Source: a virus
Reading direction: 5' to 3' (one strand)
IMG/VR virus record: IMGVR_UViG_3300044675_005482
Coordinates: 32,001 to 96,000 of that record
DNA: 64,000 nucleotides
In this document: positions 35,890 to 50,458 of the stretch, piece by piece
How the letters are laid out: each line of letters opens with the position of its first letter
Position numbering within the stretch: position 1 is the stretch's first letter
Program-made: the position numbers and the translations under genes
Notes under the pieces: generated by a model
The model's input: the letters and a program-made list of their open reading frames with translations, nothing else
Told to the model about the DNA's origin: nothing
Databases searched by the model: none

Positions 35890-36032
35890 AGTTTTATCAA
35901 AGCAAAGAATGGCTATATAGAAGGTACGTTGTTCAAAAGAAAACGGTAACAGAGATAGGTAAAGAGTGTGGAGTTTCTGCTATGACTATACAGAGATACT
36001 TAGAACAGTTTGGATTGATTAAAAAAAGATGA
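35883..36032 (+). CDS. 49-aa HTH DNA-binding protein (not in ORF track)
   Basis: MVKFYQSKEWLYRRYVVQKKTVTEIGKECGVSAMTIQRYLEQFGLIKKR*. Confidence 0.7.
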   Translation: MVKFYQSKEWLYRRYVVQKKTVTEIGKECGVSAMTIQRYLEQFGLIKKR

Positions 36033-37504: not shown

Positions 37505-39290
37505 TTTTGGCGACTTAATAGATTTACTTGATGGCGAAGAGTTTGAAGAAAAGCCAGTAGATCTTCGTGAGTTTGTTACAAGCCCAAATTATTTAGGGCT
37601 TCCTCCATTGTCAGATCTTCAATACACATTAATCGAAAAAAGCTCACAAATATATAAAGAGTCCACATTGATAAAATTGTTTGGAGAAGAAGAAGGAAAA
37701 AGAATTGCAAAACAAACTGCAACTGAAGTTATTGCACAGCTAGGCAAGGGAAGCGGAAAAGATTACTGCTCTACAATTGCAGTATCTTATATAGTATATT
37801 TACTATTGTGCCTAAAGGATCCAGCATCATATTATGGTAAGCCTCCAGGTGATGCAATTGATATCATTAATATTGCTATTAACTCACAGCAAGCAAACAA
37901 TGTATTCTTTAAGGGATTTAAAACTAGAATTGAAAAGTCGCCATGGTTTATAGGTAAATACGATCCAAAGGCTTCTGAAATGAAGTTTGATAAAGCTGTT
38001 ACAGTACACTCAGGTCACTCAGAAAGAGAAGCCTGGGAAGGATATAACGTTATTGTAGTTATTCTAGATGAGATATCAGGCTTTTCTATTGAAAATACAA
38101 CAGGACACGATCAGGCTAAAACTGCTGACGCTATATATGATATGTATCGTGCATCCGTAGACTCTCGTTTTCCAGACTTTGGGAAAGTAATTCTTCTTTC
38201 ATTTCCACGATTTAAAAATGACCCTATACAAAAATTTTATGAATCTGTCATTGGTGAAAAAGAAACTATAATTAGAACACATAAGTTTAAGATGGATGAA
38301 GATCTTCCAGACGGAACTGTTGGGAATGAGTTTGAGGTTGAGTGGGAAGAAGATCATATAAAGTCTTACCTTGTTCCAAAAGTGTATGCTTTAAAAAGAC
38401 CAACTTGGGAAGTAAACCCAACAAGAAGCATTGAAGATTTTAAGACAGCGTTCTACAAAAATAGTATGGACGCACTTGGTAGATTTGCCTGCATGCCTCC
38501 AGAAATGATTGATGCATTTTTTAAATCAAGAGAAAAAGTAGAAAAAGCGTTTAACAACACAGGCATAGCCGTAGATCAGTTTGGAAGACTTGAAGAATGG
38601 TTCAAGCCAGATCCAGACAAAAAATATTTTCTTCACGTTGACTTGGCTCAAAAGCATGACCATTGTGCAGTTGCAATGGCACATGTCGATAGATGGGTAA
38701 ACGTTAAAGTAACAAGCGATTATTCTCAGCCAGCTCCAATAGTACATGTAGATGCTGTAAGATATTGGACTCCTACTCCAGATAAGTCTGTAGATTTTAC
38801 TGAAGTAAAAGACTATATTCTTTCATTAAGAACAAGGGGATTTAATATAGGTGTTTGCACATTTGACCGATGGAACTCTCACGACATGATGCAGCAATTA
38901 AAGCAGTATGGAATTAACACGGAGATTTTATCTGTAGCAAAGAAGCATTATGATGATATGGCAATGGTGGTTCTAGAAGAAAGAATTAACGGACCACATA
39001 TACCGCTTCTTATTGATGAATTGCTTCAGCTTAAGATAATGAGAGATAAAGTAGATCACCCAAGAAAGGGATCCAAAGACTTGGCTGACGCAGTTTGTGG
39101 ATCAATATTTAATTCAATTAGCAGAACTAGACCAGATAATAATTCTGAAATAAATATTCATACTTATGAATCAATGAGTTATGATAATGACTTTAAGGTT
39201 GATGATAAAGAAACATCACTGAATATGATTAGGCCACCAAGAATGCCAGATAGGTTGTCGGAAGCGCTAGAGAGTATGGAGATAATATGA
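37494..39290 (+). CDS. terL: Terminase large subunit
   Basis: Walker A GKGSGKD, Walker B VILDE, nuclease HVDLA, FDRWNS, SKDLADA. Confidence 0.9.
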   Translation: MPFDFGDLIDLLDGEEFEEKPVDLREFVTSPNYLGLPPLSDLQYTLIEKSSQIYKESTLIKLFGEEEGKRIAKQTATEVIAQLGKGSGKDYCSTIAVSYIVYLLLCLKDPASYYGKPPGDAIDIINIAINSQQANNVFFKGFKTRIEKSPWFIGKYDPKASEMKFDKAVTVHSGHSEREAWEGYNVIVVILDEISGFSIENTTGHDQAKTADAIYDMYRASVDSRFPDFGKVILLSFPRFKNDPIQKFYESVIGEKETIIRTHKFKMDEDLPDGTVGNEFEVEWEEDHIKSYLVPKVYALKRPTWEVNPTRSIEDFKTAFYKNSMDALGRFACMPPEMIDAFFKSREKVEKAFNNTGIAVDQFGRLEEWFKPDPDKKYFLHVDLAQKHDHCAVAMAHVDRWVNVKVTSDYSQPAPIVHVDAVRYWTPTPDKSVDFTEVKDYILSLRTRGFNIGVCTFDRWNSHDMMQQLKQYGINTEILSVAKKHYDDMAMVVLEERINGPHIPLLIDELLQLKIMRDKVDHPRKGSKDLADAVCGSIFNSISRTRPDNNSEINIHTYESMSYDNDFKVDDKETSLNMIRPPRMPDRLSEALESMEII

Positions 39291-39526
39291 GCGAGTATCA
39301 GGAAAGAGCAAAGGAGTGTAAATGCTGTGGAAAGCATGTTCCTCTACCAACCGTGTTAAAAGATTTTAACGGTATTATTTTATGCCCAACAACCTTTGCT
39401 AACGTAATGGAATATAAAAGAATATGGAAGGCAATAGGAAGTAGGCCAAGCGGATCTATTAGAAAACATTTCTCTGAGTATGTTCAATCTCTAGTAGAAA
39501 ATGAAGCTATTAATGAAGTTCAATGA
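39287..39526 (+). CDS. Small Cys-containing hypothetical protein
   Basis: CKCC...LCPT. Confidence 0.5.
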   Translation: MSEYQERAKECKCCGKHVPLPTVLKDFNGIILCPTTFANVMEYKRIWKAIGSRPSGSIRKHFSEYVQSLVENEAINEVQ

Positions 39527-40592
39527 TGTTTTTAATACCAGGGTACTTAATTCAATACATCCAGATTCGGTAGAAAGATTTTTATTTAACTTAGATTCAA
39601 ATAGCGTTTTAAATAAAGAACGTGTACAAAAAATGTTTTATAATAATATAAGCAACGAAAATATAAAATATATACACACTCTAGGAAAATCTGGACACAA
39701 AAATGACAACATTACATATTCTTATAATAGCTTGGGCTTTAGAGGCAAAGAGTTTGAGCCAGAAGAAGATTTAGTTATTGCTGGGTGCTCTCAAACTTTT
39801 GGAATGGGGCTAGAAGAAAATTATATATGGGGGAATGTAGTAGCAAACAGTCTTGGATATAAGGCCTCAAATATTTCTATGCCAGGTGCATCAACTGAAT
39901 CAATTATAAATAACATATATGCTTACTTTAAAGAGTATGGTCACCCTAAAATGCTACTAGCTCTTTTCCCAGACATGTATAGATTTCAAATACCAACTAA
40001 TAGAAAATATATAACATCTTCCTCTATTAAAAATGAAGGACCAGAACCTTACGAACAACCATACATGACCTACCTTTACCTTGATAAACAAGAGCAAAGC
40101 AAGAAGCCTAAGTACCAAAAGATTCCTTTTGATTTAGAAGAAATTATAACACCAGAAATTGCTTTTTTTTATAACATGAAAAGCATTATTATTTTAAACC
40201 AATATTGTAATGCATTGGGTATCAAATTTTATTGGGCTAGCTGGAGGCCAGAACTAGATATTGCTATAACAAAGATTAAATCTGATTCTAAAGACTACGA
40301 AAACTATGTATCATTAGACATATTTAACTGGTACACAAAGCACTCATTTGAAGAAGACCCATTCGGGGTTGAAAAAAATTTAATAGAATCGGAATATTAT
40401 CATAAAGATTACGCCTTAGATTGCTATAATTGCTATAATGAACAAGAGTGTGACATGATCGTTAATTGCCATGAGGAATTATTTGAATCTAATAAAAATT
40501 TGTTTCATCACGGAAATGACCGTGCACATATAGGCTCGCATAAACATCAACACATAGCAGAAAAATTTATTGAAAGGATAAAGAATGAATAG
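39513..40592 (+). CDS. SGNH/GDSL-like hydrolase or acyltransferase (paralogue 1)
   Basis: NSLGFR, AGCSQTFG, NISMPGAS, C-terminal HIGSHKH. Confidence 0.6.
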   Translation: MKFNDVFNTRVLNSIHPDSVERFLFNLDSNSVLNKERVQKMFYNNISNENIKYIHTLGKSGHKNDNITYSYNSLGFRGKEFEPEEDLVIAGCSQTFGMGLEENYIWGNVVANSLGYKASNISMPGASTESIINNIYAYFKEYGHPKMLLALFPDMYRFQIPTNRKYITSSSIKNEGPEPYEQPYMTYLYLDKQEQSKKPKYQKIPFDLEEIITPEIAFFYNMKSIIILNQYCNALGIKFYWASWRPELDIAITKIKSDSKDYENYVSLDIFNWYTKHSFEEDPFGVEKNLIESEYYHKDYALDCYNCYNEQECDMIVNCHEELFESNKNLFHHGNDRAHIGSHKHQHIAEKFIERIKNE

Positions 40593-40686
40593 AATAACAT
40601 TTACTACTTTTTATATTATAGAAAAAATAAAAAGAAAAATAAAGACTAAAAAATATAAAAAAAGAAATAGCGGGTTTATGTACTAA
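40585..40686 (+). CDS. 33-aa basic microprotein coupled to carbamoyltransferase (not in ORF track)
   Basis: MNRITFTTFYIIEKIKRKIKTKKYKKRNSGFMY*; TAATG junction with 40686. Confidence 0.5.
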   Translation: MNRITFTTFYIIEKIKRKIKTKKYKKRNSGFMY

Positions 40687-42194
40687 TGATTATCCTGGGG
40701 ATAAACGAGACTTCTCACGATGCTTCTGTGTCTTTAATTAAGGATGGCCAGATACTTTTTGCAGGACATGCAGAAAGATATAGCAAAGAAAAGAATGATT
40801 GGTATATAAATGATGATCTCCTTAAAGATGCTTTTTCTTATGGGTTTCCAGACCACATAGCATACTATGAGAAGCCTCTTTTAAAAGCATCTAGATTATT
40901 TTTAAAAGGAGGATCTGGAGACTGGCTTCCAAGATATAAAGTAGATAATATTTTTGGCAGACCTCTACCAGTAAAATCATTCAAGCATCACTACTCCCAT
41001 GCTTGTGCTGGGTATTATACTAGCCCATATGCAGACGCAGCTATTGTTGTGCTTGATGCTATTGGAGAATATAATACTTCAACCATCTGGGTTGGAGAAG
41101 GAGAAAAAATTAAATTAAAGTATAAGCAAAATTACCCAGTGAGCTTTGGACTTTTTTATTCGGCATTTACAGAGCTATTAGAATTAATGCCAAATCAAGA
41201 AGAGTATATAATGATGGGAATGGCAGCTTATGGAAATCCAGATAGATATTTTAATCAAGTAAATAATTATTTCCCAGAATACAATAAGCAAAAATATAAT
41301 TTTCACAAAGGAATAAAAGATTTTGATTGGGGACACGTTCCTTGTTTTGCTGGTACGGAGGGCACAGGCTATGTTGGAGAATGGTTCCAGCAAAGAAAAT
41401 TTGATTTAGCTGCGGCGGTACAAAAGGTATACGAACTAAGGCTTAGCGAGTTTATGCACATGGCATATACAATTACTGGTAAAAAGAATTTAGTTTTTAT
41501 GGGAGGTTGTGCTTTAAACAGCAAGGCAAATACAATGCTCTGGAATATATTTAAAGATGTTTGGATCATGCCAAACCCAGGAGACGCTGGAAGCTCATTA
41601 GGAGCAGCATTAGCACTATACGGCAAACACATAGAGTGGAAAGGTCCATATTTAGGACACGACATTGGTGGGAAATATCCAGTTCAAAAAATTTTTGATG
41701 GCATATTAAAAGATGGCATAGTTGCTGTTGCTTCAGGAAGGGCAGAGTATGGCCCAAGAGCTTTAGGAAATAGAAGCATCCTTGCTGACCCTAGAGATCC
41801 AAACATTAAAGACAAAGTAAATCTAATAAAACAAAGAGAGATGTTTAGACCGTTTGCTCCAGTAGTATTAGAAGAGTTTGCCAGCGAATGGTTTGATATG
41901 AATTTTGCATCTCCATATATGCAATACACTGTTAAATGTAAATATCCAGACAAGGTTCCATCTGTAGTTCATGTAGACGGAACATCTAGAGTTCAAACAG
42001 TCAATAGAGATCAGCATCCAGGCCTGCACATGGTTTTAAGAAAGTTTTACTGGGAAACTGGAATCCCAATGCTATTGAATACTAGCTTAAATATAAAGGG
42101 ACAGCCATTGTTAAATGATAAACAAGATGCTATTGACTGGCAGGAGCATTATAGATATAATATACTAACTAGCAACAATAGCTTAGTTGGTTAA
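40686..42194 (+). CDS. O-carbamoyltransferase (NodU/CmcH/TobZ family)
   Basis: HDASV, HHYSHA, VLDAIGE, GGCALN, EYGPRALGNRSIL, REMFRPFAP, HVDGTSRVQTV, LNTSLN. Confidence 0.93.
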   Translation: MIILGINETSHDASVSLIKDGQILFAGHAERYSKEKNDWYINDDLLKDAFSYGFPDHIAYYEKPLLKASRLFLKGGSGDWLPRYKVDNIFGRPLPVKSFKHHYSHACAGYYTSPYADAAIVVLDAIGEYNTSTIWVGEGEKIKLKYKQNYPVSFGLFYSAFTELLELMPNQEEYIMMGMAAYGNPDRYFNQVNNYFPEYNKQKYNFHKGIKDFDWGHVPCFAGTEGTGYVGEWFQQRKFDLAAAVQKVYELRLSEFMHMAYTITGKKNLVFMGGCALNSKANTMLWNIFKDVWIMPNPGDAGSSLGAALALYGKHIEWKGPYLGHDIGGKYPVQKIFDGILKDGIVAVASGRAEYGPRALGNRSILADPRDPNIKDKVNLIKQREMFRPFAPVVLEEFASEWFDMNFASPYMQYTVKCKYPDKVPSVVHVDGTSRVQTVNRDQHPGLHMVLRKFYWETGIPMLLNTSLNIKGQPLLNDKQDAIDWQEHYRYNILTSNNSLVG

Positions 42195-42245
42195 AGCCCC
42201 GAACTCATAATTCGGTAATCGTAGGTTCAAGTCCTACTTGTTGCA
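42172..42245 (+). tRNA. tRNA with CAT anticodon (Ile2/lysidine or elongator Met)
   Basis: Acceptor GCAACAA/TTGTTGC, anticodon arm CCGAA-CTCATAA-TTCGG, T arm GTAGG-TTCAAGT-CCTAC; lacks initiator features. Confidence 0.9.
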
Positions 42246-42258
42246 CACAGGAGGTGCT

Positions 42259-43263
42259 ATGTTTAATACACATATGGGTGACAATGAAAGCTTGCTGGAC
42301 GCAATGATCCATAAGCCAAGTCATTTTTTTAATGTGTCAGAACACACCAAATTTTTATTATATGATAACTCTTTAGTTAAAGACACACCTAAAGAAGTAA
42401 ATCCTGCTGTGTTTAGAAAGAATCAAATATCATACAGGATGAACAGAAAAAATTATAGGTCTCCAGATTTTCACAAAGACACCGACATTCTTTTTGCTGG
42501 TTGCTCTTTGACTTATGGTGACGGAATCCCAGAAGAATTTGTATGGCCTAGCATTGTTGCAAGAGATCTTGGTCTAACCTATGCCAATTTGGGACTATCT
42601 GGAGATTCAGTTTACGGACAAGTAAAAAGAATATTTGCCTACTTTAAAGAATTTGGACATCCTAAATATCTATACGCTATTTTCCCAGAATTTTATAGAA
42701 TGGTTATACCAATAAATAGAAGAGTGTTTACTACTGGGAATTCTGTAAGAGAATTAAAGGAAAGAAAAGATAATGATTATAATGAATTTATTTTAAAAAA
42801 TGCTTTTATTCCAGGCTCTATAGATAAAAACTTTAAAATGTCTATTCGTCCTCATGTTGCAGAGCATGTATTGAACCCAGAAATACCTCATTTTTTATCT
42901 GCACAAAGCATACTTATGCTGGACGCATACTGTGAAGCCGCAGGCATTAAGTTTGCTTGGTCTACGTGGGATCAAAAACAATTTATGGTGCTAAAATCAT
43001 TAGGAGAAAACTACTATAAAAACTTAATAGATATAGACATGGAGTCATGGGAAATATGCTATAGTCCAATAGAAGATAAGTATAAGAAAAATGGAGAACA
43101 GGTATTCTGCCATAATGAGTTAAAAGATATAAGCAGAGGGTTTTTTGATTTAGGTATGGATAGAGATTATGGAATTAAATCAGCACATTGGGGATCTCAT
43201 AGGCATCAGCACGTAGCTGATATCATTAAAAATCATGTATCGAAATGGATTAGTAATGGATGA
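42259..43263 (+). CDS. SGNH/GDSL-like hydrolase or acyltransferase (paralogue 2)
   Basis: AGGAGG RBS just after the tRNA; AGCSLTYG, NLGLSGDS, AYFKEFGHPK, HWGSHRH. Confidence 0.6.
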   Translation: MFNTHMGDNESLLDAMIHKPSHFFNVSEHTKFLLYDNSLVKDTPKEVNPAVFRKNQISYRMNRKNYRSPDFHKDTDILFAGCSLTYGDGIPEEFVWPSIVARDLGLTYANLGLSGDSVYGQVKRIFAYFKEFGHPKYLYAIFPEFYRMVIPINRRVFTTGNSVRELKERKDNDYNEFILKNAFIPGSIDKNFKMSIRPHVAEHVLNPEIPHFLSAQSILMLDAYCEAAGIKFAWSTWDQKQFMVLKSLGENYYKNLIDIDMESWEICYSPIEDKYKKNGEQVFCHNELKDISRGFFDLGMDRDYGIKSAHWGSHRHQHVADIIKNHVSKWISNG

Positions 43264-43537
43264 AATAATGCAACATTACCTAGAAATAGGTGCAATTGAA
43301 ATTTCTGGTGTAGATAGTAATGGAGAAATGCTGTTCTCTATTACTGAAAAAGCAAAGGAAGTTGCCCCAGAACTATGGGAGTCTCACCAAGAGCATGTAG
43401 ATAAAACCCTTATAGATCTTTATGAAAAGGGGCTTATTGAGGTAGAGTATAATGAAAACCTAGAGGCTGAAATAAAGTTAAGCGAAGCTGGCATTGAGGC
43501 ATCAAGAGAATACGGCTTAAGGTTTTTAGGAGAATAG
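43256..43537 (+). CDS. Hypothetical acidic protein (winged-helix-like)
   Basis: LYEKGLIEV...LSEAG pattern. Confidence 0.5.
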   Translation: MDEIMQHYLEIGAIEISGVDSNGEMLFSITEKAKEVAPELWESHQEHVDKTLIDLYEKGLIEVEYNENLEAEIKLSEAGIEASREYGLRFLGE

Positions 43538-43540
43538 TTA

Positions 43541-44590
43541 ATGTTTAGTTATCAGGGCTGGAAATTTGACACTATAGAATCAATACCATACCCAGAAGAA
43601 AACTTTGAAATAATTAAGGTTACTAACTTAAGGAACAGAGAGTCTATATCCTATGGCTCTGTAATTGAAGAGCCTGCCTTTATGATGCCAGCCAACGCAC
43701 ACCTGTGGCATTTTGTGCAGGAGGGCCTAGCTCAGTATGAAGTTATAGCCAATAAAATTCCATCAGTTAAGTTATTTTTGCACGACATACATATTGGAAC
43801 CGTAACAGAAAAATTTTTAAGTATTGAAAATTATTGTAAAATAAAAGGAAAGAATTTTAAATACATTAAAGATTTGTCTAATATTTATAGTCACGATAAA
43901 AAAGTATACATTACACACAGCAGGACTATTCTCATTAAGGAAGCATATTTTATTAACGATACACTAAGATTAATAGACAGAGATTTAGTGCTTCAAGGTA
44001 ATGTTGTGCCATACTGGGTAGAAGCAACAGATGCTGACGGTAACTGGATTGAAGGAGAAGAGTATAAAAAGGCTTCCCCTTATTTTAATCAAGACTGCAT
44101 ATACGATAGATGGCAGATGGACGGACTACACCTTGTAAAAGATAGATTGAGTCCTTATATAAAAGAAAATAATGAGTCTTATAAAAAAATATATATTAGC
44201 AGAGAAGATGTAAATAAAATGTGGTCGCAATTGTCCCCAGATAGAGCCTTTGCGGAAGAGCATATCTTGGTTGACTATTTTATTTCACAGGGGTATAATA
44301 AGGTTGTACTGACTAATTATGATTACATAGATCAAATTAATATTATTTTTAATGCTACTCATATTGTTGGTCTTACTGGTTCTGGTTTATTTAATACCTT
44401 TTTATGTAAACCTGGCACTACCGTAATTGAAATAAACGTAAGCGGTGGATACTATTGGTCTTATGAATATTTTAAAGAATTTAATATAAAAGTTAAAACG
44501 GCAGAACTAAGATGGAGAAAAGATTACACTGCAGTATTGTCAAAGAAAAACATGGATAAATTAAAAGAACTGGTAGAAAATAATGATTAA
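43541..44590 (+). CDS. GT61/DUF563-like glycosyltransferase (paralogue 1)
   Basis: HLWHF, KIYISR, QINIIFNATHIVGLTGSGL...VIEI. Confidence 0.7.
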   Translation: MFSYQGWKFDTIESIPYPEENFEIIKVTNLRNRESISYGSVIEEPAFMMPANAHLWHFVQEGLAQYEVIANKIPSVKLFLHDIHIGTVTEKFLSIENYCKIKGKNFKYIKDLSNIYSHDKKVYITHSRTILIKEAYFINDTLRLIDRDLVLQGNVVPYWVEATDADGNWIEGEEYKKASPYFNQDCIYDRWQMDGLHLVKDRLSPYIKENNESYKKIYISREDVNKMWSQLSPDRAFAEEHILVDYFISQGYNKVVLTNYDYIDQINIIFNATHIVGLTGSGLFNTFLCKPGTTVIEINVSGGYYWSYEYFKEFNIKVKTAELRWRKDYTAVLSKKNMDKLKELVENND

Positions 44591-45677
44591 TATAGTTGTT
44601 CCGCTAGCTGGAGAAGGAACTAGATTTTCTTCTGCTGGCTTCAAAACCCCAAAGCCTTTAATAGTTGTCGATGGCAAAACTATGATAGAGCATTCCGTAG
44701 AGACCCTTGGTATTAAGGGCAGGTATATTTTTATAACAAAAGAATATAAAAACAATTTATATAACATTGAGCTGTCCTCTATTATTAAAAGGATAATGCC
44801 AGATGCAATTGAAATAAAAGTTGATAAAAAACAACGTGGTGCTGCAGATGCCGTAATGTATGCAGAAAAATATATTGATAATAAGAACAGCTTAATAACA
44901 ATTAATTGCGATCAAATTTTAAATTGGGATGCGGAAGAGTTTCTTAAGCATGTTGAAGATTCTGGTGCTGACGGTGCTGTAGTTTTATTTAAAGCCGACG
45001 ATCCAAAGCATAGCTACGCAGAAGTTATAGACAATAAGATTATAAAGATTGTTGAAAAAGAAGTGATATCTAATGACGCATTAATTGGAGTACACTACTG
45101 GAAACACGGTTCAGATTTTGTTGCTTCGGCAAAAGAGCTTTTAAACATTGACGGCCCAAATGAAGTATATATATCTCAAACATACTCTGCTATGTTAAAA
45201 AATGGAAAGACAATATCTCCATTCTTTATTCCTAATAATGACTATATTAATTTAGGAACACCAGAAGACGTAACAATTTATTTGGGGAAGGTTAAAGAAT
45301 TTTATACAGACAAGCCAAAAACAATATTCTGCGATATAGACGGAACAATTATAAAGCACCTACACAAGTTCAGTGACCTAGGTAAATTTGATGCAGAAAT
45401 TTTGCCAGGGGTAATAAATAAGTTTAATGAGTGGGATTCAAAAGGATATAAGATTATTTTAACAACTGCTAGAAAAGAATCGGCAAGGGCAATTACAGAG
45501 AAACATTTAAATGGGCTTGGTTTGTGCTGGGACATGTTAATAATGGGAGTCACAAGCGGGCAAAGAGTTCTAATAAATGATAAACTAAACTATAAAGATC
45601 CAGATAGAGCAACTTCTATTAACCTAATCACAAACGACGGGTTTGAATCAACATACTGGGAAGAGTACGGGCTATGA
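44583..45677 (+). CDS. Sugar-phosphate nucleotidyltransferase fused to a HAD phosphatase
   Basis: VPLAGEGTRF...PKPLI, NCDQ, LGTPED; C-terminal FCDIDGT, TTAR, IND. Confidence 0.85.
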   Translation: MINIVVPLAGEGTRFSSAGFKTPKPLIVVDGKTMIEHSVETLGIKGRYIFITKEYKNNLYNIELSSIIKRIMPDAIEIKVDKKQRGAADAVMYAEKYIDNKNSLITINCDQILNWDAEEFLKHVEDSGADGAVVLFKADDPKHSYAEVIDNKIIKIVEKEVISNDALIGVHYWKHGSDFVASAKELLNIDGPNEVYISQTYSAMLKNGKTISPFFIPNNDYINLGTPEDVTIYLGKVKEFYTDKPKTIFCDIDGTIIKHLHKFSDLGKFDAEILPGVINKFNEWDSKGYKIILTTARKESARAITEKHLNGLGLCWDMLIMGVTSGQRVLINDKLNYKDPDRATSINLITNDGFESTYWEEYGL

Positions 45678-46003
45678 AGCTTTCAAGACTAGAAGACACT
45701 ATCGGAGGATGGTTTGTAGGAGATTTTGACAAGGCGGCATACAGGACAGATGCATGTGAGGTATCCTATAAGTATCATCATAAGGGAGAGCATTGGCCCA
45801 CACACTACCAAGAAAAGGTAATGGAGATCAATCTAATGGTTCGTGGACAAATGAAGATGCAGGATAAAATACTTTTATCTGGAGATATTTTTATAATATA
45901 TCCTTATGAGATAGCTGATCCAGAATTCCTTACTGACTGCGAAGTTGTTTGCGTAAAGGTTCCTGGAATTACAAATGACAAAGTGGTAGTTGAAAAGATA
46001 TGA
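45674..46003 (+). CDS. Cupin-fold protein
   Basis: GWFVGDF, HYQ...EINL..RG, GDIFII.P. Confidence 0.7.
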   Translation: MKLSRLEDTIGGWFVGDFDKAAYRTDACEVSYKYHHKGEHWPTHYQEKVMEINLMVRGQMKMQDKILLSGDIFIIYPYEIADPEFLTDCEVVCVKVPGITNDKVVVEKI

Positions 46004-46470
46004 GGCTTATATCTCATAGAGGTAATTTATCTGGACCAAATTCTGAAAAGGAAAATAGTCCAGAGTATATAAAAATAGCTTATGAATTAGGGTACGATGT
46101 AGAGATAGATCTTTGGTCTAATGACACAGAAATGTTTTTAGGTCACGATGAACCACAATATAAAATAGATTATGAGTTTATAAACTCAATGTCTGATAGA
46201 TTATGGGTACACTGCAAAAATTTAGAAGCCCTATATTGTTGCGAGTTTTTACTTAAAGATATAAACTATTTTTGGCATCAATCTGATGATTTTACTTTAA
46301 CTAGCAAAAACATAATATGGACATATCCAGGGAAATACTTAACTCCAAATTCTGTTCTTGTGATGCCAGAGCTTAATAAGTTTGCTGATATCGGTCCAGA
46401 TGTGTATGGTATTTGCACAGATGAGATTCTAGAAGTAAAGGAAATGCTAGATGACATACCAGTTTCCTGA
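46000..46470 (+). CDS. GDPD-like phosphodiesterase
   Basis: ISHRGN, ENSP, GYDVEIDLW, LGHD, GICTD. Confidence 0.75.
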   Translation: MRLISHRGNLSGPNSEKENSPEYIKIAYELGYDVEIDLWSNDTEMFLGHDEPQYKIDYEFINSMSDRLWVHCKNLEALYCCEFLLKDINYFWHQSDDFTLTSKNIIWTYPGKYLTPNSVLVMPELNKFADIGPDVYGICTDEILEVKEMLDDIPVS

Positions 46471-47569
46471 TAGATGGAAGGCTGAGTCGGTAGAAGTAAT
46501 AGATACACCAGATTCATTTGGCAAAATATTTAAGCTCTCTAATGTATCTTATACCAATAAGTCTCATACTGAAACAATACATGTACCAGGCAAAACTTTT
46601 ATTGGCTTAGCAGACTTTTATATATGGCATTTTTTATATGATTCGATTGCACAATTTTGTTATTTAAAAACTCAAATTAAAGATATTAATCTTTTTTTTA
46701 TTGCTCCAGCAGTAGTTGAGCCTGGCACAAAAGATGACTTCTTAGATCAAATGAAATACATTAGCTTTCATGCTAAGTCAGATACAATTAAAGAACCTCA
46801 GCCACACAAATATTTTGAAGATATATTTGAAATATTTGTAACCCAAGAACATATATATAATCTAGACTCTGTTAACTTTACTTTTGAGGAAGTATATTTT
46901 GTTTATGACAACGTTAGATATTTTAATAGAGTTCCAGAACTATTACATGCTGGCAAACACTGGTTTAATATACCATACGCATATTGGATAAATAACTCAT
47001 GGGAATCTCGTGCTCATATTACTAGGGGAGTTTTTCCAGAAACATGGTGGAGAAGCATAGGCATACTAGAAATGAGAAATATATTTTTAAAAAAATTAAA
47101 AGATGTAAAAACAGAAACTCCTAAAAAAATATTTTTATCTAGAAAAGATGCCAATGGGAGGTACAAAGAGAGAGGACTAAGTCCAACTTTTGATAGGTAT
47201 TGCAGTGACGAGGTAGACTCAACTGTAGAAGATTTTTTTGTTTCTCGTGGATATCACCCTATAGTTTTAGAAGGAATGGGATATCTAGAGCAATTAAATT
47301 ATTTTAAAAATGCTACACATATTGCTGGCATAGTCGGATCGTCTTTTTGCCAAACGCTTGTATGTAATCCTTCTGCCATAGTATCTCAAATTATGGTAAA
47401 TAGAAAATATGATTTTACCTACCAATTTATTTCAGAGATGGTAGGATATCATCTTAATGATATAGACTTAAGGTCAGTCTATCCAGTTATTGATAAAATA
47501 AAATTAATTTTAGAAAAAAAATACGGATTCATTGAGTCTGTACATAGGAGTAAAAATTATGAGATATAA
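46451..47569 (+). CDS. GT61/DUF563-like glycosyltransferase (paralogue 2)
   Basis: YIWHF, KIFLSR, EQLNYFKNATHIAGIVGSSF. Confidence 0.7.
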   Translation: MTYQFPDRWKAESVEVIDTPDSFGKIFKLSNVSYTNKSHTETIHVPGKTFIGLADFYIWHFLYDSIAQFCYLKTQIKDINLFFIAPAVVEPGTKDDFLDQMKYISFHAKSDTIKEPQPHKYFEDIFEIFVTQEHIYNLDSVNFTFEEVYFVYDNVRYFNRVPELLHAGKHWFNIPYAYWINNSWESRAHITRGVFPETWWRSIGILEMRNIFLKKLKDVKTETPKKIFLSRKDANGRYKERGLSPTFDRYCSDEVDSTVEDFFVSRGYHPIVLEGMGYLEQLNYFKNATHIAGIVGSSFCQTLVCNPSAIVSQIMVNRKYDFTYQFISEMVGYHLNDIDLRSVYPVIDKIKLILEKKYGFIESVHRSKNYEI

Positions 47570-48575
47570 TCAAGTTAATGCTATAGACATAATTCCAGTT
47601 AACTCGTCGGCATTTTGCATGAGGGTACCTAGAGTAAAATTTAAGTCTTTGCAGGCCAGAACACCCACAAGCATATATTATAATTTTGTATACCCAGAAG
47701 AACATGATCCTAATTTAGAAATTACTGAGCAGAGAGACGTATTTGTTATTCCCTATGTTGAAAAATATTATCATAACTTTTTAGAGCTTATTCCAAAGAT
47801 ATTGTTTTTAAAAAATATTAACCCGAATTTTAGATTAATAGTAATTGCCAATAATGAGTCTGAAGTTAATCCAAAAACTGGACTTTTTTATGGGTGGGAA
47901 AAGGGGGAAGACGACAATAATCATAATTTGAGCAACATAAAAGAATTTTTAGATATGTCTAACATTAGATATATGTGTACTCATTCAAAATCAGATTTTT
48001 TTCAAAACATGGTTGCCCAATCAGCGTACATATTCTTTGATTATAAAAAAAATATTGGAAGAAATCGTCCAAGCTTTTATCCAAAAAATTATGATTTTCC
48101 AAACTCGTACCCCTTTCACGCAACTACAGCTCAGACCGCAGAGTCTTTAATGCCGTATCTTGAGATATTACATGGAATAATAAATGAAAGTATATCTGGA
48201 AATAGAAGCATATATGTATCTAGAAAACATTTTCCAGAAAGAAAATTAGATAACGAAGAAGCTTTAGAGCAATTTATGATTGATTCTGGATACGAGATAC
48301 ATCATTTTGAAACAATGTCAATAGTTGATCAATTAAAATTAGTAAAAGAGTGCAAAAGAATAGTTATTTTAAATGGATCTTCCGCAGTTAATTGTATGTT
48401 TGCCAACCCAGGCACAGAAGTTTTTGTTTTTAATAACGGGGCTGACATAGTAGGTCTTTACGAAAAGGCTTGTGAGGAGTATAATATACAATACAACTTC
48501 ATAGAAATGCCAGACAACAATGCAGAATGGATAATTGAATATTTAAAAACAAATAAACTTAATAAGCCTTTGTAG
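47559..48575 (+). CDS. GT61/DUF563-like glycosyltransferase (paralogue 3)
   Basis: YYHNF, IYVSRK...RKLDNE, DQLKLV...NGSSAVN; AGGAG RBS. Confidence 0.75.
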   Translation: MRYNQVNAIDIIPVNSSAFCMRVPRVKFKSLQARTPTSIYYNFVYPEEHDPNLEITEQRDVFVIPYVEKYYHNFLELIPKILFLKNINPNFRLIVIANNESEVNPKTGLFYGWEKGEDDNNHNLSNIKEFLDMSNIRYMCTHSKSDFFQNMVAQSAYIFFDYKKNIGRNRPSFYPKNYDFPNSYPFHATTAQTAESLMPYLEILHGIINESISGNRSIYVSRKHFPERKLDNEEALEQFMIDSGYEIHHFETMSIVDQLKLVKECKRIVILNGSSAVNCMFANPGTEVFVFNNGADIVGLYEKACEEYNIQYNFIEMPDNNAEWIIEYLKTNKLNKPL

Positions 48576-48638
48576 CTCAGAGGACAGAGCAGGACTCTTC
48601 TAAGGTCTTGGTCGCAGGTTCGACTCCTGCCAAGGGCA
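48566..48638 (+). tRNA. tRNA-Arg(TCT)
   Basis: GCCTTTG/CAAGGGC acceptor, GGACT-CTTCTAA-GGTCT anticodon arm, GCAGG-TTCGACT-CCTGC T arm. Confidence 0.9.
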
Positions 48639-48642
48639 CAAG

Positions 48643-48715
48643 GCCCCTGTAGCCCAGTGGCAGAGGCACACGACTTAAAATCGTGAAAGCGTTGGTTCGA
48701 ATCCAACCAGGGGCA
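48643..48715 (+). tRNA. tRNA-Leu(TAA), short variable loop
   Basis: GCCCCTG/CAGGGGC acceptor, CACGA-CTTAAAA-TCGTG anticodon arm, GTTGG-TTCGAAT-CCAAC T arm. Confidence 0.88.
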
Positions 48716-48719
48716 CAAT

Positions 48720-48792
48720 TGGAGATTAGCTCAGCAGGCAGAGCGGGAAGCTGTTAACTTCTAGGTCATAGGTTCGAATCCTATATCTCCAG
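48720..48792 (+). tRNA. tRNA-Asn(GTT)
   Basis: TGGAGAT/ATCTCCA acceptor with U1-A72 and G73; GGAAG-CTGTTAA-CTTCT anticodon arm. Confidence 0.9.
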
Positions 48793-48812
48793 CAAATGTT
48801 AAACAGTTTTAT

Positions 48813-49547
48813 TTAGTCTTCTTCTGGCGTCCAGGCAGGACCTTCAAGCCATCTACCTATAGATTCTTTTGATCTATCTTTTACATACTTAAGATATTCT
48901 TCGCCTTTGTAATTATAAAATGTTCCAGGAGCATGTTCTGTTTTTGTTGCAAAACAAGAGAATGCATATCTTGTTCCAGAAGTCACAGGTTTTGTTCCAT
49001 GATAATATGGAGACTCAGCGCCATGAATTACAACATCTCCAGGTTCTGGTTTATATATTAATTCTCCAGGCATGCATTCAATTTCAGCATTTGGTTTTAA
49101 TGTTCCGTCTGGTAAAAATGCTGGATAAAAAACTTCTCCACCTTCAAATTCAGATAAATATGTTACAACACCATAATCAATTAGGCTACAGGTTCCGTAT
49201 GTGTCTTCTTGTGTAAGCTCGTGAGCTTTATCTTTTCCTGGATTATCAGCATGAATAAACATTCCTTCATGACCTACTCTAGAGGTAATTACTTGAGACT
49301 GTGGATTAATTACGTAGTCTGGATAAAGCAATTCTGACACATGCTCCCATAGATCTATAATGCCAGGAACTGGTGGGCTCATTTTGTCATCATACCAAGG
49401 AATAGCATTGCCCTCTTCCTGAAATAGCTCTGGATTAAAGGTATCTAGTATGCTTGAAAATCTATCGCACATCTCTCTGGGGACATATCCCTTAAATACG
49501 TATATGCCATCAATTATTTTAGTGCAATCTGGTCTGTCGTAGAACAT
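48813..49547 (-). CDS. 2OG-Fe(II) oxygenase (prolyl-hydroxylase-like)
   Basis: HAD (HxD), YLSEFEGGE, YHG, TRY. Confidence 0.85.
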   Translation of the reverse strand: MFYDRPDCTKIIDGIYVFKGYVPREMCDRFSSILDTFNPELFQEEGNAIPWYDDKMSPPVPGIIDLWEHVSELLYPDYVINPQSQVITSRVGHEGMFIHADNPGKDKAHELTQEDTYGTCSLIDYGVVTYLSEFEGGEVFYPAFLPDGTLKPNAEIECMPGELIYKPEPGDVVIHGAESPYYHGTKPVTSGTRYAFSCFATKTEHAPGTFYNYKGEEYLKYVKDRSKESIGRWLEGPAWTPEED

Positions 49548-50227: not shown

Positions 50228-50458
50228 ATGCTTCATAGATGGTTGCCAAATCCAGATAACAGTATAGATTATAATTATTTAGATATCGATACTCACAATG
50301 GCCCATTTTGCGACGTATGCAGAAAGTTTTTTTGTATGATATGCGACGACCTATCTCTTTTAAAGTGCGAAGAAGATCCAGATCCTAGCATAGAGTGGTC
50401 TCCAATAGGTGGAGAACTTGCAATGGCAATAATAAATAGAAAAGGTCACAATGAATAA
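50228..50458 (+). CDS. Small Cys-rich protein
   Basis: CDVC..FCMIC...C. Confidence 0.5.
   Translation: MLHRWLPNPDNSIDYNYLDIDTHNGPFCDVCRKFFCMICDDLSLLKCEEDPDPSIEWSPIGGELAMAIINRKGHNE

What the first reader, a model, noticed from the sequence alone, without database searches (positions are those of the whole stretch)
39513..48575. tRNA-bounded glycan-building and decorating island: three GT61-like genes, carbamoyltransferase flanked by two SGNH paralogues, and a donor-synthesis trio
Seen: a 9-kb, very AT-rich run of SGNH-like / 33-aa peptide / carbamoyltransferase / tRNA / SGNH-like / wHTH / GT61 / NTP-transferase-HAD / cupin / GDPD-like / GT61 / GT61 / tRNAs. A GT32 (34695) and a SAM methyltransferase (36029) are slotted singly into the replication operon. 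Established: NodU/CmcH enzymes O-carbamoylate hydroxyls, SGNH folds include polysaccharide O-acyltransferases and esterases, and GT61 includes protein O-GlcNAc and xylosyl/arabinosyl transferases. Inference: the phage makes its own activated donor, builds a glycan and decorates it (carbamoyl/acyl/methyl) on virion proteins or the infected-cell surface. This is far more elaborate than a lone phage glycosyltransferase.
Basis: partly seen in the sequence, partly recalled or inferred. Interest (0 to 1): 0.85.

Follow-up and report, generated by a model that had tools for sequence, protein, structure and literature searches.

The report
Phage sugar-and-carbamoyl tailoring island
A lake-water phage carries a real 9-kb block of sugar-building genes. 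It is joined to a three-gene set (esterase-fold enzyme, a 33-residue peptide ending in tyrosine, carbamoyl-adding enzyme) that also occurs in bacteria and probably passes carbamoyl groups through the peptide's tyrosine; what gets decorated is unknown.

Summary
The gene list is correct. Pfam confirms three GT61 genes, the NodU/CmcH carbamoyltransferase (CmT), the NTP-transferase-HAD fusion, and the upstream GT32 and methyltransferase. A predicted structure shows the two paralogues are SGNH-fold proteins, and the 156-aa protein is a mini GDPD-like phosphodiesterase. 'wHTH' is unverified, and only the 3' end is tRNA-bounded.

The island is composite.

1. The core is SGNH protein(s), the '33-aa peptide' and CmT. 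The peptide is a conserved gene: a basic micro-protein that always ends [F/Y]-x-Tyr, found in at least 57 of 79 related phage loci. It always sits against an SGNH or CmT gene. The same SGNH-peptide-CmT order occurs in bacteria of several phyla.
2. The GT61, NDP-sugar, cupin and GDPD module is variable. It occurs in about 20 of 79 loci and is homologous to cyanophage sugar islands.

My best reading (about 0.4) is a carbamoyl-tyrosine relay, analogous to the DltX/PatA acyl-tyrosine shuttles that feed SGNH transferases. It would decorate a phage-built glycan. The acceptor is unproven. A hydroxylated virion protein is the leading candidate, and DNA is unlikely.

Rivals are a crocagin-like peptide product, and direct carbamoylation with the peptide as an accessory.

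Earlier notes of this scan reported the same tyrosine-tailed peptide triad on other DNA. I retested the main points here.

The parts
34695..35543 (+). GT32-type glycosyltransferase, lying singly in the replication/recombination operon
   Evidence: Pfam Gly_transf_sug E 2e-14 and Caps_synth E 5.5e-6. Present in 21 of 79 related loci.
36029..36610 (+). SAM-dependent methyltransferase
   Evidence: Pfam Methyltransf_31/25/11 and PHROG methyltransferase. Present in only 5 of 79 related loci.
36968..39290 (+). Terminase small-subunit-like (36968-37504) and large-subunit-like (37494-39290) genes: the conserved 5' neighbours of the island
   Evidence: phrog_9507, and weak terminase large subunit matches. 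The TerL-like gene is found in 59 of 79 loci, directly upstream of the core.
39287..39526 (+). 79-aa Cys-motif (CKCCGK...CP) small protein that travels with the terminase gene
   Evidence: Sequence. Present in 56 of 79 loci, always between the TerL-like gene and the first SGNH gene.
39513..40592 (+). SG1, a divergent SGNH-fold protein (block I G-C-S97; D340 and H343 invariant)
   Evidence: AF2 model pLDDT 74.7. Foldseek and VIA hits are all SGNH/GDSL, Z 12-15. Invariant residues from alignment A2. 356 relatives in IMG/VR. None in GenBank phages.
40585..40686 (+). Tyrosine-tailed basic micro-protein: 33 aa, ending GFMY; its start overlaps the SG1 stop and its stop overlaps the CmT start (TAATG)
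   Evidence: 63 motif matches on the + strand against 0 on the - strand, among 7001 small ORFs in 79 loci. 46 of them abut an SG or CmT gene. Variable sites by codon position 11:5:14. SD-like AAAGGA upstream. Bacterial counterparts end in DPFIY(K).
40686..42194 (+). NodU/CmcH-type O-carbamoyltransferase (CmT)
   Evidence: Pfam Carbam_trans_N and Carbam_trans_C. phrog_1601 E 1e-103. 45% identical to Ralstonia phage RsoM2USA and 43-47% to bacterial homologues.
42172..42246 (+). tRNA-Met (CAT); overlaps the last 23 nt of the CmT gene
   Evidence: ARAGORN.
42259..43263 (+). SG2, paralogue of SG1 (SGNH fold by homology)
   Evidence: 32% identity, E 1e-48. Alignments A1 and A2. Metatranscriptome contigs cover 42219-42487 and 42899-43160 (weak, since DNA may be present in the library).
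43256..43537 (+).
   Evidence: Conserved in 33 of 79 loci. No Pfam or PDB match.
43541..44590 (+). GT61a glycosyltransferase
   Evidence: Pfam Glyco_transf_61 E 1.1e-12, 48.8 bits against a cut-off of 27. Absent from the relative L008 and present at 71% identity in L010.
44583..45677 (+). Sugar-1-phosphate nucleotidyltransferase fused to a HAD phosphatase
   Evidence: Pfam NTP_transferase and HAD families. NCBIfam rmlA_long, AglF and HAD-IIIA. PDB 4evw and HddC. 34-37% identical to cyanophage genes.
45674..46003 (+). Small cupin-like protein
   Evidence: phrog_24762 E 3e-30. Atlas look-alike clusters carry Cupin_2, score 0.96-0.97. A homologue directly follows gene 206, the best match to the window's NTP-HAD protein, in phage Bellamy.
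46000..46470 (+). Mini GDPD-like phosphodiesterase domain (H6-R7-G8, E18-N19, E35, D37, H49-D50)
   Evidence: Profile against PDB GDPD 7e0v, E 9.6e-5. AF2 pLDDT 95.5. Foldseek GDPD hits, prob 1.0. 2503 cluster representatives. Fused to GT61 or methyltransferases in other proteins.
46451..47569 (+). GT61b glycosyltransferase
   Evidence: Pfam Glyco_transf_61, 31.1 bits against a cut-off of 27. 49% identical to a sixth GT61 at genome 97356-98486.
47559..48575 (+). GT61c glycosyltransferase (likely ATG at 47559; the ORF opens at a TTG at 47532)
   Evidence: Pfam Glyco_transf_61 E 6e-19. Start read from the translation. Contig depth over GT61b/c falls from about 80 to 0-9 in one lake run, so the region varies between strains.
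48566..48793 (+). tRNA-Arg(TCT), tRNA-Leu(TAA) and tRNA-Asn(GTT): the 3' border
   Evidence: ARAGORN.
48813..49547 (-). Divergent 2OG-Fe(II) oxygenase-like protein flanking the island
   Evidence: Pfam 2OG-FeII_Oxy_3 E 0.0026, below the cut-off. Paralogy. Conserved at 75-94% in the close relatives.
50451..51041 (+). P4H-like 2OG-Fe(II) oxygenase, one of seven paralogues in the genome
   Evidence: Pfam 2OG-FeII_Oxy_3 E 1.1e-11. Oxygenase hits lie within 10 kb of the SG gene in 46 of 79 loci.

Best explanation
The stretch is a composite tailoring island of an uncultured freshwater phage with a DnaE-type polymerase.

Module 1 is the conserved core: SG1, the 33-aa peptide, CmT and SG2. It is a three-part carbamoylation cassette that also exists in bacteria. 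Inferred mechanism:
1. CmT makes carbamoyl-AMP from carbamoyl phosphate and ATP (established chemistry of the TobZ/NodU family, from my own knowledge).
2. It loads the carbamoyl group on the hydroxyl of the invariant C-terminal tyrosine of the micro-protein.
3. The SGNH-fold proteins take the group on their block-I serine and deliver it to acceptor hydroxyls.
4. Different SGNH paralogues serve different acceptor sites.
This would be a soluble version of the acyl-tyrosine shuttle shown for DltX-DltD, PatA-PatB and OatA.

Module 2 is variable: GT61a, NTP-transferase-HAD, cupin, mini-GDPD, GT61b and GT61c. It makes an NDP-sugar and builds a short glycan. The HAD domain is inferred to trim a sugar bisphosphate to a sugar-1-phosphate, which the nucleotidyltransferase activates. 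The cupin is a possible isomerase or epimerase.

Both modules are inferred to act on the same product: a glycan that is carbamoylated, and possibly methylated by the upstream methyltransferase. The acceptor is not shown. The leading candidate is a phage protein hydroxylated by the seven P4H-like oxygenases, for example the FN3-(FFxPPx)27-Hint protein in the tail-fibre region.

Shown here: gene content, folds, conservation, synteny and the peptide's reality. Inferred: every chemical step and the target.
For: Folds and families.

The peptide is a gene:
- 63 matches on the + strand against 0 on the - strand.
- 46 of them abut an SG or CmT gene.
- It is present in at least 57 of 79 loci, and in more by eye.
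- Substitutions within one subgroup are conservative, and the second codon position varies least (11:5:14).
- Tyr is invariant and the residue at -2 is always F or Y.

The triad is conserved beyond phages:
- In Edaphobacter, Binataceae, two Verrucomicrobia and a gammaproteobacterium, a basic ORF ending DPFIY abuts a CmT that is 43-47% identical.
- The gene just upstream matches the SG profile at E 2e-18 to 3e-8.
- Haliscomenobacter, Opitutales and Bdellovibrionales loci carry the peptide (ending DPFIYK or DPYIYK) beside CmT, but no SG homologue was detected next to it.
- The phage peptide profile ranks five of these bacterial peptides as the top 5 of 3949 small ORFs.

A more distant CmT branch carries DUF5989 membrane micro-proteins ending PFIYA[VL]F, which fits FXYXXF, right after the CmT gene.

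PMC12148441 shows that an acyl-Tyr in the C-terminal FXYXXF motif (FIYANF in N. gonorrhoeae PatA) is the donor for SGNH transferases. PatB is among the Foldseek matches of SG1.

Complete phage genomes with peptide + SG placed away from CmT still carry a CmT. In one complete genome (G006) and one 39%-complete record (G008), a micro-peptide gene lies directly after the CmT gene.

There are 1-4 SG copies per locus and one CmT.

The glycan module, when present, always lies near the triad, although in shuffled order. The GDPD-like domain occurs fused to GT61 elsewhere.

Candidate acceptor: the FN3-(FFxPPx)n-Hint protein followed by P4H-like oxygenases is conserved in relatives.
Against: - No chemistry has been tested. 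To my knowledge an O-carbamoyl-tyrosine intermediate has never been demonstrated.
- Characterised NodU/TobZ/CmcH enzymes carbamoylate their final acceptor directly.
- The phage peptide ends at the tyrosine, so it lacks the XXF half of the shuttle motif. It has no transmembrane helix, and there is no MBOAT or AT3 partner, so the membrane-crossing purpose of the known shuttles does not apply.
- The peptide is not a DUF5989 member by HMM.
- The conserved hydrophobic-aromatic N-terminus and the Lys-rich middle of the peptide are unexplained.
- The link between the triad and the GT61 module rests on neighbourhood only, and about 55 of 79 loci have the triad without GT61 nearby.
- One 91%-complete relative has the repeat-Hint protein but no GT61, so the acceptor assignment is weak.
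Confidence: 0.4

Rival explanations
1. Peptide-product (RiPP-like) reading. The micro-protein is the substrate, not a carrier. Its C-terminal aromatic tripeptide is hydroxylated by 2OG oxygenases, carbamoylated by CmT, possibly glycosylated by the GT61 enzymes and methylated, and then released by the SGNH hydrolases. This follows crocagin biosynthesis, where CgnA ends in the core IYW, CgnC is a dioxygenase, CgnD an SGNH-type hydrolase, CgnI a carbamoyltransferase and CgnL a methyltransferase.
For: - The top structural match of SG1 is CgnD (8a2n), Z 14.9 over 214 residues.
- CgnA is a 21-aa, Lys/Arg-rich precursor with a 3-residue C-terminal aromatic core. Crocagin-like clusters carry glycosyltransferases in place of the carbamoyltransferase (PMC10070186).
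- The last three residues of the phage peptide are its most conserved part.
- Oxygenase genes lie within 10 kb in 46 of 79 loci.
Against: - CgnD scores within about 1 Z unit of generic SGNH esterases, which is a tie, and there is no sequence-level relation.
- No homologues of the class-defining CgnB/CgnE proteins were seen.
- In the three bacterial loci whose neighbouring genes I scanned, the genes next to the conserved triad included no oxygenase.
- One to four SGNH paralogues per locus is odd for a leader peptidase.
- Some bacterial peptides carry a Lys after the Tyr (DPFIYK), which a carrier tolerates more easily than a defined core would.
Confidence: 0.2
2. CmT carbamoylates the glycan directly. 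The SGNH proteins are ordinary O-acyl transferases or esterases of the glycan. The micro-protein is only an accessory: a CmT/SGNH subunit, a chaperone, or a translational-coupling leader.
For: - All characterised members of the CmT family act directly on small-molecule or glycan hydroxyls (my own knowledge).
- The peptide's start overlaps the upstream stop, and its stop overlaps the downstream start, which fits a coupling ORF.
- SGNH folds include carbohydrate esterases among the matches, CE2 and CE3.
Against: - A pure coupling ORF would not keep an invariant C-terminal [F/Y]-x-Y and a basic architecture from phages to Acidobacteriota and Verrucomicrobiota.
- The peptide sits next to SG genes even where CmT is tens of kb away.
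- The motif coincides with the proven acyl-Tyr donor motif of SGNH transferases.
Confidence: 0.2
3. Host-envelope target. The same enzymes remodel a polymer of the infected cell (cell-wall glycopolymer, capsule or lipid-linked glycan), for example to block superinfection. The GDPD-like domain would act on glycerophosphodiester-type polymers.
For: - Structural matches of the GDPD-like model include GDPD domains of staphylococcal phage tail proteins (9f5m, 9eul).
- Homologous donor modules lie in cyanophage islands that are annotated as LPS-related.
- GT61 content varies between close strains, as expected for a surface arms race.
Against: - I noted no signal peptide or transmembrane segment when reading the island's protein sequences (by eye; no predictor was run).
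- No flippase, polymerase or lipid-carrier transferase was found in the island among the genes searched.
- The host is unknown.
Confidence: 0.1
4. DNA hypermodification. The sugars and carbamoyl groups are put on phage DNA bases, as in RB69/DLP3 arabinosyl-5-hydroxycytosine.
For: - The island follows the replication/recombination genes.
- The RB69/DLP3 pathway also uses an NDP-sugar pyrophosphorylase plus a HAD phosphatase (PMC13326640).
Against: - No thymidylate-synthase homologue, ThyX or C5-methyltransferase is present, and Tet_JBP matches are sub-threshold only.
- The known DNA arabinosyltransferases match GT-B-fold glycosyltransferases such as GT4-type sucrose-phosphate synthase and BshA, not GT61.
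- The tblastn search with the NTP-HAD protein listed no T4-like (RB69-type) phage among its hit organisms.
Confidence: 0.07

Closest known systems
Acyl-tyrosine shuttles feeding SGNH transferases: DltX-DltB-DltD, PatA-PatB, OatA (PMC12148441)
   Same: A short C-terminal motif with an invariant Tyr and an aromatic residue two positions before it (FIY in NgPatA's FIYANF; [F/Y]-[IVMT]-Y here), encoded next to an SGNH-fold protein with an intact block-I Ser and block-V Asp/His.
   Different: No MBOAT or AT3 loader, no transmembrane helix, and the motif stops at Tyr (no XXF). The proposed loader is a soluble ATP-dependent carbamoyltransferase, and the group would be carbamoyl rather than acetyl or D-alanyl. 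Nothing has been tested biochemically.
Carbamoyltransferase cassettes with DUF5989 (PF19451, SxtK-type) micro-proteins and GDSL proteins (the sxtI/J/K/L block of saxitoxin clusters; the sxt naming is from my own knowledge and earlier scan notes)
   Same: A CmT gene immediately flanked by a basic micro-protein containing PFIY. Verified here in four prokaryotic loci with true DUF5989 proteins ending PFIYA[VL]F.
   Different: The phage and DPFIY(K) peptides are shorter, lack the membrane helix and do not match the DUF5989 HMM. No SxtJ-like gene was looked for. The function of SxtJ/K is itself unknown.
Crocagin biosynthetic gene cluster of Chondromyces crocatus (PMC10070186)
   Same: A short Lys/Arg-rich peptide with a three-residue aromatic C-terminus, a 2OG dioxygenase, an SGNH-type hydrolase (the best structural match of SG1), a carbamoyltransferase and a methyltransferase. 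Relatives of that cluster carry glycosyltransferases.
   Different: No CgnB/CgnE homologues were seen and the core has no Trp. The SGNH similarity is at fold level only. The bacterial version of the triad lacks the oxygenase.
Cyanomyophage sugar islands (S-CAM9, S-PRM1, S-SM2, Bellamy, SynMITS9220M01)
   Same: Homologous NDP-sugar pyrophosphorylase (34-37% identity), GDPD-like protein (41-49%) and cupin (38-39%). The order 'best NTP-HAD match (gene 206), then cupin (gene 207)' is kept in Bellamy. They are embedded among several glycosyltransferases and close to tRNA genes.
   Different: Those islands use other glycosyltransferase families plus epimerases, and lack the SGNH family. The peptide profile and motif scan of the S-CAM9 and Bellamy islands found no such peptide. 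Their products are equally uncharacterised.
Phage DNA arabinosylation pathway of RB69/DLP3 (PMC13326640)
   Same: A phage-encoded route to an NDP-sugar through a nucleotidyltransferase and a HAD phosphatase, followed by several glycosyltransferases.
   Different: That pathway needs a thymidylate-synthase homologue to create the hydroxyl on cytosine, an isomerase and a kinase domain, and uses glycosyltransferases that match GT-B enzymes such as sucrose-phosphate synthase and BshA. None of these is present here.
Virus-encoded glycosylation of virion proteins
   Same: Several virus-encoded glycosyltransferases and a methyltransferase that would act in the cytoplasm on structural proteins.
   Different: No carbamoylation, SGNH/peptide cassette or own donor synthesis is described for the phage cases. 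Here the protein target is only a candidate.

Membership tests
Glycosyltransferase family 61 (Pfam PF04577) | Match to the family HMM above the curated cut-off | tested here: met
   GT61a 48.8 bits, GT61b 31.1 bits, GT61c 69.0 bits; cut-off 27. Six such genes in the genome.
Glycosyltransferase family 61 (Pfam PF04577) | Fold and acceptor type (protein O-GlcNAc, xylosyl or arabinosyl transfer) | not tested
PDB sequence search gave nothing.
NodU/CmcH/TobZ O-carbamoyltransferases | Both the N-terminal (Kae1-like) and the C-terminal (YrdC-like) domains present | tested here: met
   Carbam_trans_N E 1.7e-39 and Carbam_trans_C E 1.5e-55. Full-length match to phrog_1601.
SGNH/GDSL hydrolase superfamily | Flavodoxin-like alpha/beta fold shared with solved members | tested here: met
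   VIA Z 12-15, 160-214 aligned residues, against dozens of SGNH structures. All significant Foldseek hits are SGNH.
SGNH/GDSL hydrolase superfamily | Block I Ser nucleophile and block V Asp-x-x-His | tested here: met
   G95-C96-S97, D340 and H343 are invariant in 20 sequences. Block I aligns with GDS of 4rsh. The D-to-H spacing varies in some members.
SGNH/GDSL hydrolase superfamily | Match to a Pfam GDSL model | tested here: not met
   No Pfam hit for SG1 or SG2. The Edaphobacter homologue reaches Lipase_GDSL_2 only at E 2.4e-4, below the cut-off.
Glycerophosphodiester phosphodiesterase (GDPD) | N-terminal HRG...EN...E.D...HD catalytic motif | tested here: met
   H6, R7, N19, E35 and H49 are invariant; G8, E18, D37 and D50 are nearly invariant. 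Profile against GDPD 7e0v gives E 9.6e-5 over residues 3-52.
Glycerophosphodiester phosphodiesterase (GDPD) | Complete TIM-barrel of about 230-250 residues | tested here: inconclusive
   The protein has only 156 aa. Foldseek TM-score is 0.5-0.6 on the query and 0.38-0.40 on the targets. No Pfam GDPD hit.
Cupin superfamily | Double-stranded beta-helix fold | tested here: inconclusive
   Only language-model look-alikes: Cupin_2 clusters at 0.96-0.97. No Pfam hit and no model made.
Winged helix-turn-helix / RiPP recognition element | wHTH fold or a PqqD-like match | tested here: inconclusive
   No Pfam hit. Profile against PDB gave no hit below E 0.18.
DUF5989 (PF19451, SxtK type) | Match to the family HMM | tested here: not met
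   None of 24 phage peptides and none of 5 bacterial DPFIY peptides match. No match in the genome. Positive controls from four CmT loci score 44-82 bits.
Acyl-tyrosine shuttle motif (DltX/PatA FXYXXF) | Invariant Tyr with an aromatic residue at -2 near the C-terminus | tested here: met
   Y33 is invariant, and F or Y stands at -2 in all 24 aligned peptides and in 43 of 44 unique peptides; the exception looks spurious.
Acyl-tyrosine shuttle motif (DltX/PatA FXYXXF) | XXF tail, transmembrane helix and an MBOAT/AT3 loader | tested here: not met
   The peptides end at Tyr, or at Tyr-Lys in bacteria. No MBOAT or AT3 gene appeared among the island ORFs scanned.
Acyl-tyrosine shuttle motif (DltX/PatA FXYXXF) | Covalent acyl-Tyr intermediate handed to the SGNH serine | not testable with these tools
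   Needs mass spectrometry of the expressed proteins.
Crocagin-type RiPP cluster | CgnB/CgnE peptide-binding proteins (class-defining) | not tested
   No query sequence was on hand. No island protein other than SG1/SG2 is of comparable size.
Phage DNA hypermodification (5hmC/5hmU/5hoC-based) | Thymidylate-synthase-like hydroxy(methyl)ase, or TET plus C5-methyltransferase, to create the hydroxyl handle | tested here: not met
   PF00303, PF02511 and PF00145 gave no match. PF12851 gave only 12-16 bits against a cut-off of 34.9.

The most novel reading that the evidence does not exclude
A soluble carbamoyl-tyrosine relay that needs no MBOAT. A NodU-type carbamoyltransferase loads carbamoyl on the C-terminal tyrosine of a micro-protein of about 30 residues. 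A set of divergent SGNH transferases then distributes it to defined hydroxyls of a phage-built GT61 glycan, which sits on a prolyl-hydroxylated tail-fibre-region protein. This would be a new group-transfer logic, shared by phages and bacteria, and it would also explain the unknown small proteins found next to bacterial carbamoyltransferases.
Probability: 0.25. Interest if true: 0.85.

Novelty: new variant of a known kind. Interest (0 to 1): 0.72.

Why it matters
If the relay reading holds, tyrosine-carrier chemistry would no longer be limited to membrane-bound acetyl and D-alanyl transfer. It would extend to a cytoplasmic carbamoyl transfer. It would also give a function to a very large, uncatalogued family of micro-proteins, and to a family of SGNH proteins that is common in freshwater phages (356 relatives in IMG/VR).

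The phage invests heavily in modification enzymes:
- eight glycosyltransferases
- seven oxygenases
- two SGNH proteins
- one carbamoyltransferase
- one methyltransferase
- its own donor synthesis

This suggests that post-translational or glycan decoration is central to the biology of abundant lake phages. The GT61 genes vary between close strains, which suggests a role at the phage-host interface.

The core cassette has only three genes and can be tested directly in E. coli.

Tried and rejected
- Complex prediction with the 93-aa acidic protein and the micro-peptide gave 'no answer' (score 0.01). This is no evidence either way.
- Megablast of the island against GenBank phages found nothing. 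tblastn of SG1 against the same collection found nothing.
- SG1 and the SG profile against PDB sequences gave nothing significant. CgnD is not detected by sequence.
- The acidic-protein profile against PDB gave nothing. GT61c against PDB gave nothing.
- The promoter and terminator scan was not above shuffled expectation, so I claim no operon boundaries.
- The CmT neighbourhoods in Ralstonia phage RsoM2USA and phage C48C1, and the S-CAM9 and Bellamy sugar islands, contain no SG homologue and no Tyr-tailed peptide.
- DUF5989 membership of the peptide is rejected by HMM.
- RNA contigs of one metatranscriptome touch SG2, GT61a and the tRNA end, but not the peptide or CmT. Absence of cover means nothing, and the library may hold DNA.
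- Contig joints from the tRNA-Met end to 43322 or to 48565 have sides of 30 letters or fewer on tRNA sequence. I treat them as unreliable rather than as deletion variants.
- MAG labels of the closest 'genomic' CmT hits (Bacteroidia, Acidimicrobiaceae, Beijerinckiaceae, Flavobacterium, Methylococcus; 65-79% identity) disagree with each other. These are most likely phage contigs binned by mistake, so I draw no host from them.
- An arabinosyl-DNA pathway was considered and set aside.
- A ribosome-arrest or leader-peptide role for the micro-ORF was considered. It is kept only inside the 'accessory' rival.

Full report
**Where the window lies**

The window is bases 32001-96000 of a 113,997-bp IMG/VR phage record that CheckV rates as complete. 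The phage has a DnaE-type polymerase that is 58% identical to those of large Streptomyces phages, and its GC content is about 36%. Near-identical DNA occurs in lake and freshwater metagenomes from well over a dozen studies. The host is unknown. MAG labels on related contigs contradict each other, so I did not use them.

**Checking the observation**

- Pfam puts all three GT61 genes above the curated cut-off. It also finds both carbamoyltransferase domains and an NTP_transferase + HAD fusion. PHROGs and NCBIfam agree.
- The two 'SGNH-like' ORFs have no Pfam hit. They are clear paralogues (32% identity, E 1e-48).
- With 18 database homologues and SG2 I built an alignment and an AlphaFold2 model (pLDDT 74.7). 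Every significant Foldseek hit, and dozens of VIA-align hits at Z 12-15, are SGNH/GDSL proteins. G-C-S97, D340 and H343 are invariant.
- The 156-aa protein carries the N-terminal GDPD catalytic motif. Its family profile hits GDPD 7e0v (E 9.6e-5), and a pLDDT-95 model matches only GDPDs at the top. At 156 residues it is a shortened version.
- The cupin label rests on language-model look-alikes only.
- The 'wHTH' label could not be verified. Its real start is probably 43256.
- GT32 and the methyltransferase upstream are confirmed.
- The block is modestly AT-richer than its flanks.
- A tRNA cluster bounds only the 3' end. tRNA-Met lies inside the block, and the 5' neighbours are the terminase genes.

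**The island is two modules**

A profile scan of IMG/VR found 356 relatives of the SGNH family, and I examined 79 loci. Mapping the island's proteins onto them gave the following.
- The terminase pair, a 79-aa Cys-motif protein, one to four SGNH genes and one carbamoyltransferase form a conserved backbone. CmT is present in 64 of 79 loci, many of which are truncated.
- The GT61 genes, the NTP-HAD fusion, the cupin and the GDPD-like gene occur in only about 10-22 loci. Their order is shuffled, but they always lie close to the SGNH/CmT genes.
- The donor-synthesis genes are homologous to genes in cyanomyophage sugar islands: 34-37% for the pyrophosphorylase, 41-49% for the GDPD-like protein and 38-39% for the cupin. 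The order 'best NTP-HAD match (gene 206), then cupin (gene 207)' is kept in phage Bellamy. Elaborate phage sugar islands are therefore not unprecedented, although none has been characterised.
- The GDPD-like family is large, with 2503 cluster representatives. It occurs fused to GT61, to methyltransferases and to a sulfotransferase-like domain, which ties it functionally to decorating transferases.
- In one lake run, contig depth over GT61b/c collapses while the rest of the island stays at about 80x. Close relatives also differ in GT61 content. The glycosyltransferase set therefore varies between strains.

**The 33-aa ORF is the key**

The gap between SG1 and CmT holds a small ORF. Its start overlaps the SG1 stop, its stop overlaps the CmT start (TAATG), and an AAAGGA motif precedes it.
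- A motif scan of the 79 loci looked for ORFs of 18-60 aa with at least 25% Lys+Arg and an ending of [FYW][IVLMT]Y. It found 63 on the + strand and none on the - strand, among 7001 small ORFs. Of these, 46 lie directly upstream of an SGNH or CmT gene, and some loci have two copies.
- The architecture is constant: a hydrophobic-aromatic N-terminus, a Lys-rich middle and a C-terminal [R/D/K]-[F/Y]-[I/V]-Y. Tyr is invariant.
- Within one subgroup the substitutions are conservative, and the second codon position varies least.

The family is not confined to phages. A CmT-profile scan of prokaryotic genomes gave these results.
- Bacterial CmT genes of 43-47% identity are preceded by basic ORFs ending DPFIY(K), or followed by one in the Opitutales locus. 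This holds in Edaphobacter modestus, a Binataceae MAG, two Verrucomicrobia, Haliscomenobacter, an Opitutales MAG, a gammaproteobacterium and a Bdellovibrionales MAG.
- In five of these loci the gene immediately upstream matches my SGNH-family profile at E 2e-18 to 3e-8. The Edaphobacter copy has a sub-threshold GDSL hit.
- The phage peptide profile ranks five bacterial peptides as the best 5 of 3949 small ORFs.
- In a more distant CmT branch, true DUF5989 membrane micro-proteins ending PFIYA[VL]F follow the CmT gene. The short peptides themselves do not match DUF5989.
- Complete phage genomes in which peptide + SGNH lie far from any CmT still carry a CmT elsewhere. In one complete genome (G006) and one 39%-complete record (G008), a micro-peptide gene lies directly after the CmT gene.

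**Mechanism**

Two published systems resemble this.

*1. Acyl-tyrosine shuttles.* PMC12148441 shows that SGNH transferases of cell-envelope acylation take their acyl group from a tyrosine in a C-terminal FXYXXF motif. The motif sits on the micro-protein DltX or on the MBOAT PatA, whose peptide is FIYANF. OatA uses a tyrosine in the same way.
- The phage peptide ends in the first half of that motif and is encoded next to SGNH proteins. One Foldseek match of those proteins is PatB.
- An aryl carbamate is chemically competent to carbamoylate a serine hydrolase (my own knowledge).
- I therefore favour a relay: CmT loads Tyr, and the SGNH paralogues unload it onto acceptors. This explains the triad's conservation, the peptide's position beside either enzyme, and the variable number of SGNH genes per single CmT.
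- Against it: no membrane step, no MBOAT, a truncated motif, and no precedent for carbamoyl-Tyr.

*2. Crocagin biosynthesis.* PMC10070186 describes a 21-aa basic precursor with a three-residue aromatic C-terminus, a 2OG dioxygenase, the SGNH hydrolase CgnD, a carbamoyltransferase and a methyltransferase.
- CgnD is the top VIA match of SG1, but only within about 1 Z unit of generic esterases. Sequence searches do not find it.
- I could not find CgnB/CgnE-type proteins.
- I found no oxygenase next to the bacterial triads whose neighbours I scanned.
- I keep this as the main rival.

**The target**

Known routes to a hydroxyl handle on DNA are absent. The DNA arabinosylation pathway of RB69/DLP3 uses different transferases.

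The genome holds seven P4H-like oxygenases, four of them in the tail-fibre region. One lies directly downstream of a 616-aa FN3-(FFxPPx)27-Hint protein, and three more follow in tandem a few kb further on. That protein family is conserved in relatives. It is a reasonable acceptor candidate for hydroxylation followed by glycosylation. However, one nearly complete relative keeps it without any GT61, so the link is weak. A host-envelope target cannot be excluded.

**Relation to earlier notes of this scan**

Before I looked at earlier notes I had already reached the conserved peptide and the crocagin parallel. The notes then pointed me to the DltX/PatA paper and to DUF5989. I checked both myself. 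The scan has therefore met this peptide/SGNH/CmT triad before, on other DNA. In the literature I could search, I found no description of it in phages.

**Verdict**

The feature is a real tailoring island of two modules, and its core is probably a new variant of tyrosine-carrier group transfer. Product and target remain open. The three-gene core can be tested directly at the bench.

Noticed in passing
genome 17460-19310 (locus L088:17460-19310), outside the window: A 616-aa protein with FN3-like domains, about 27 tandem FFxPPx units and a C-terminal Hint-like domain. It sits right after the tail-fibre and virion genes, and P4H-like 2OG oxygenases follow it. The family is conserved in related phages with varying repeat types (FFxPPx, PFF/PPPF, YFPP).
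   Followed up: partly
genome 664-2899 (-), 3749-4741 (+) and 97356-98486 (+), outside the window: Three more GT61 genes and a further glycosyltransferase (phrog_2170). The genome therefore carries at least eight glycosyltransferases. The GT61 at 97356 is 49% identical to GT61b.
   Followed up: partly
window 46342-48518: In one freshwater run the contig depth falls from about 80 to 0-9 over GT61b/GT61c, while the rest of the island stays covered. This suggests that the dominant strain there carries a different glycosyltransferase cassette.
   Followed up: no
window 42172-42194 and 48566-48575: The CmT gene and the GT61c gene both end inside the first bases of tRNA genes (tRNA-Met and tRNA-Arg).
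   Followed up: no
L108-L113 (prokaryotic MAG contigs): Contigs with 65-79% identical CmT, and in most cases the same micro-peptide, are filed under MAGs of unrelated phyla (Bacteroidia, Acidimicrobiaceae, Beijerinckiaceae, Chitinophagaceae, Flavobacterium, Methylococcus). They are most likely phage contigs binned by mistake.
   Followed up: no
L120:2574-3287 and L124:7461-8891 (bacterial loci): The bacterial SGNH-peptide-CmT triads sit beside an APS kinase, a radical SAM gene, a GT28-like gene, and integrase or transposase genes. This hints that the cassette is mobile and is linked to other group-transfer enzymes.
   Followed up: no
window 49664-50227: A CHAP/NlpC-P60 peptidoglycan hydrolase gene lies just beyond the tRNA cluster. 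It is conserved downstream of the island in about 20 related loci.
   Followed up: no
window 43235-43255: A 99%-identical contig (L007) has a stop at codon 3 of the long form of the 'wHTH' ORF. The protein therefore probably starts at 43256 (93 aa), and it is strongly acidic.
   Followed up: partly
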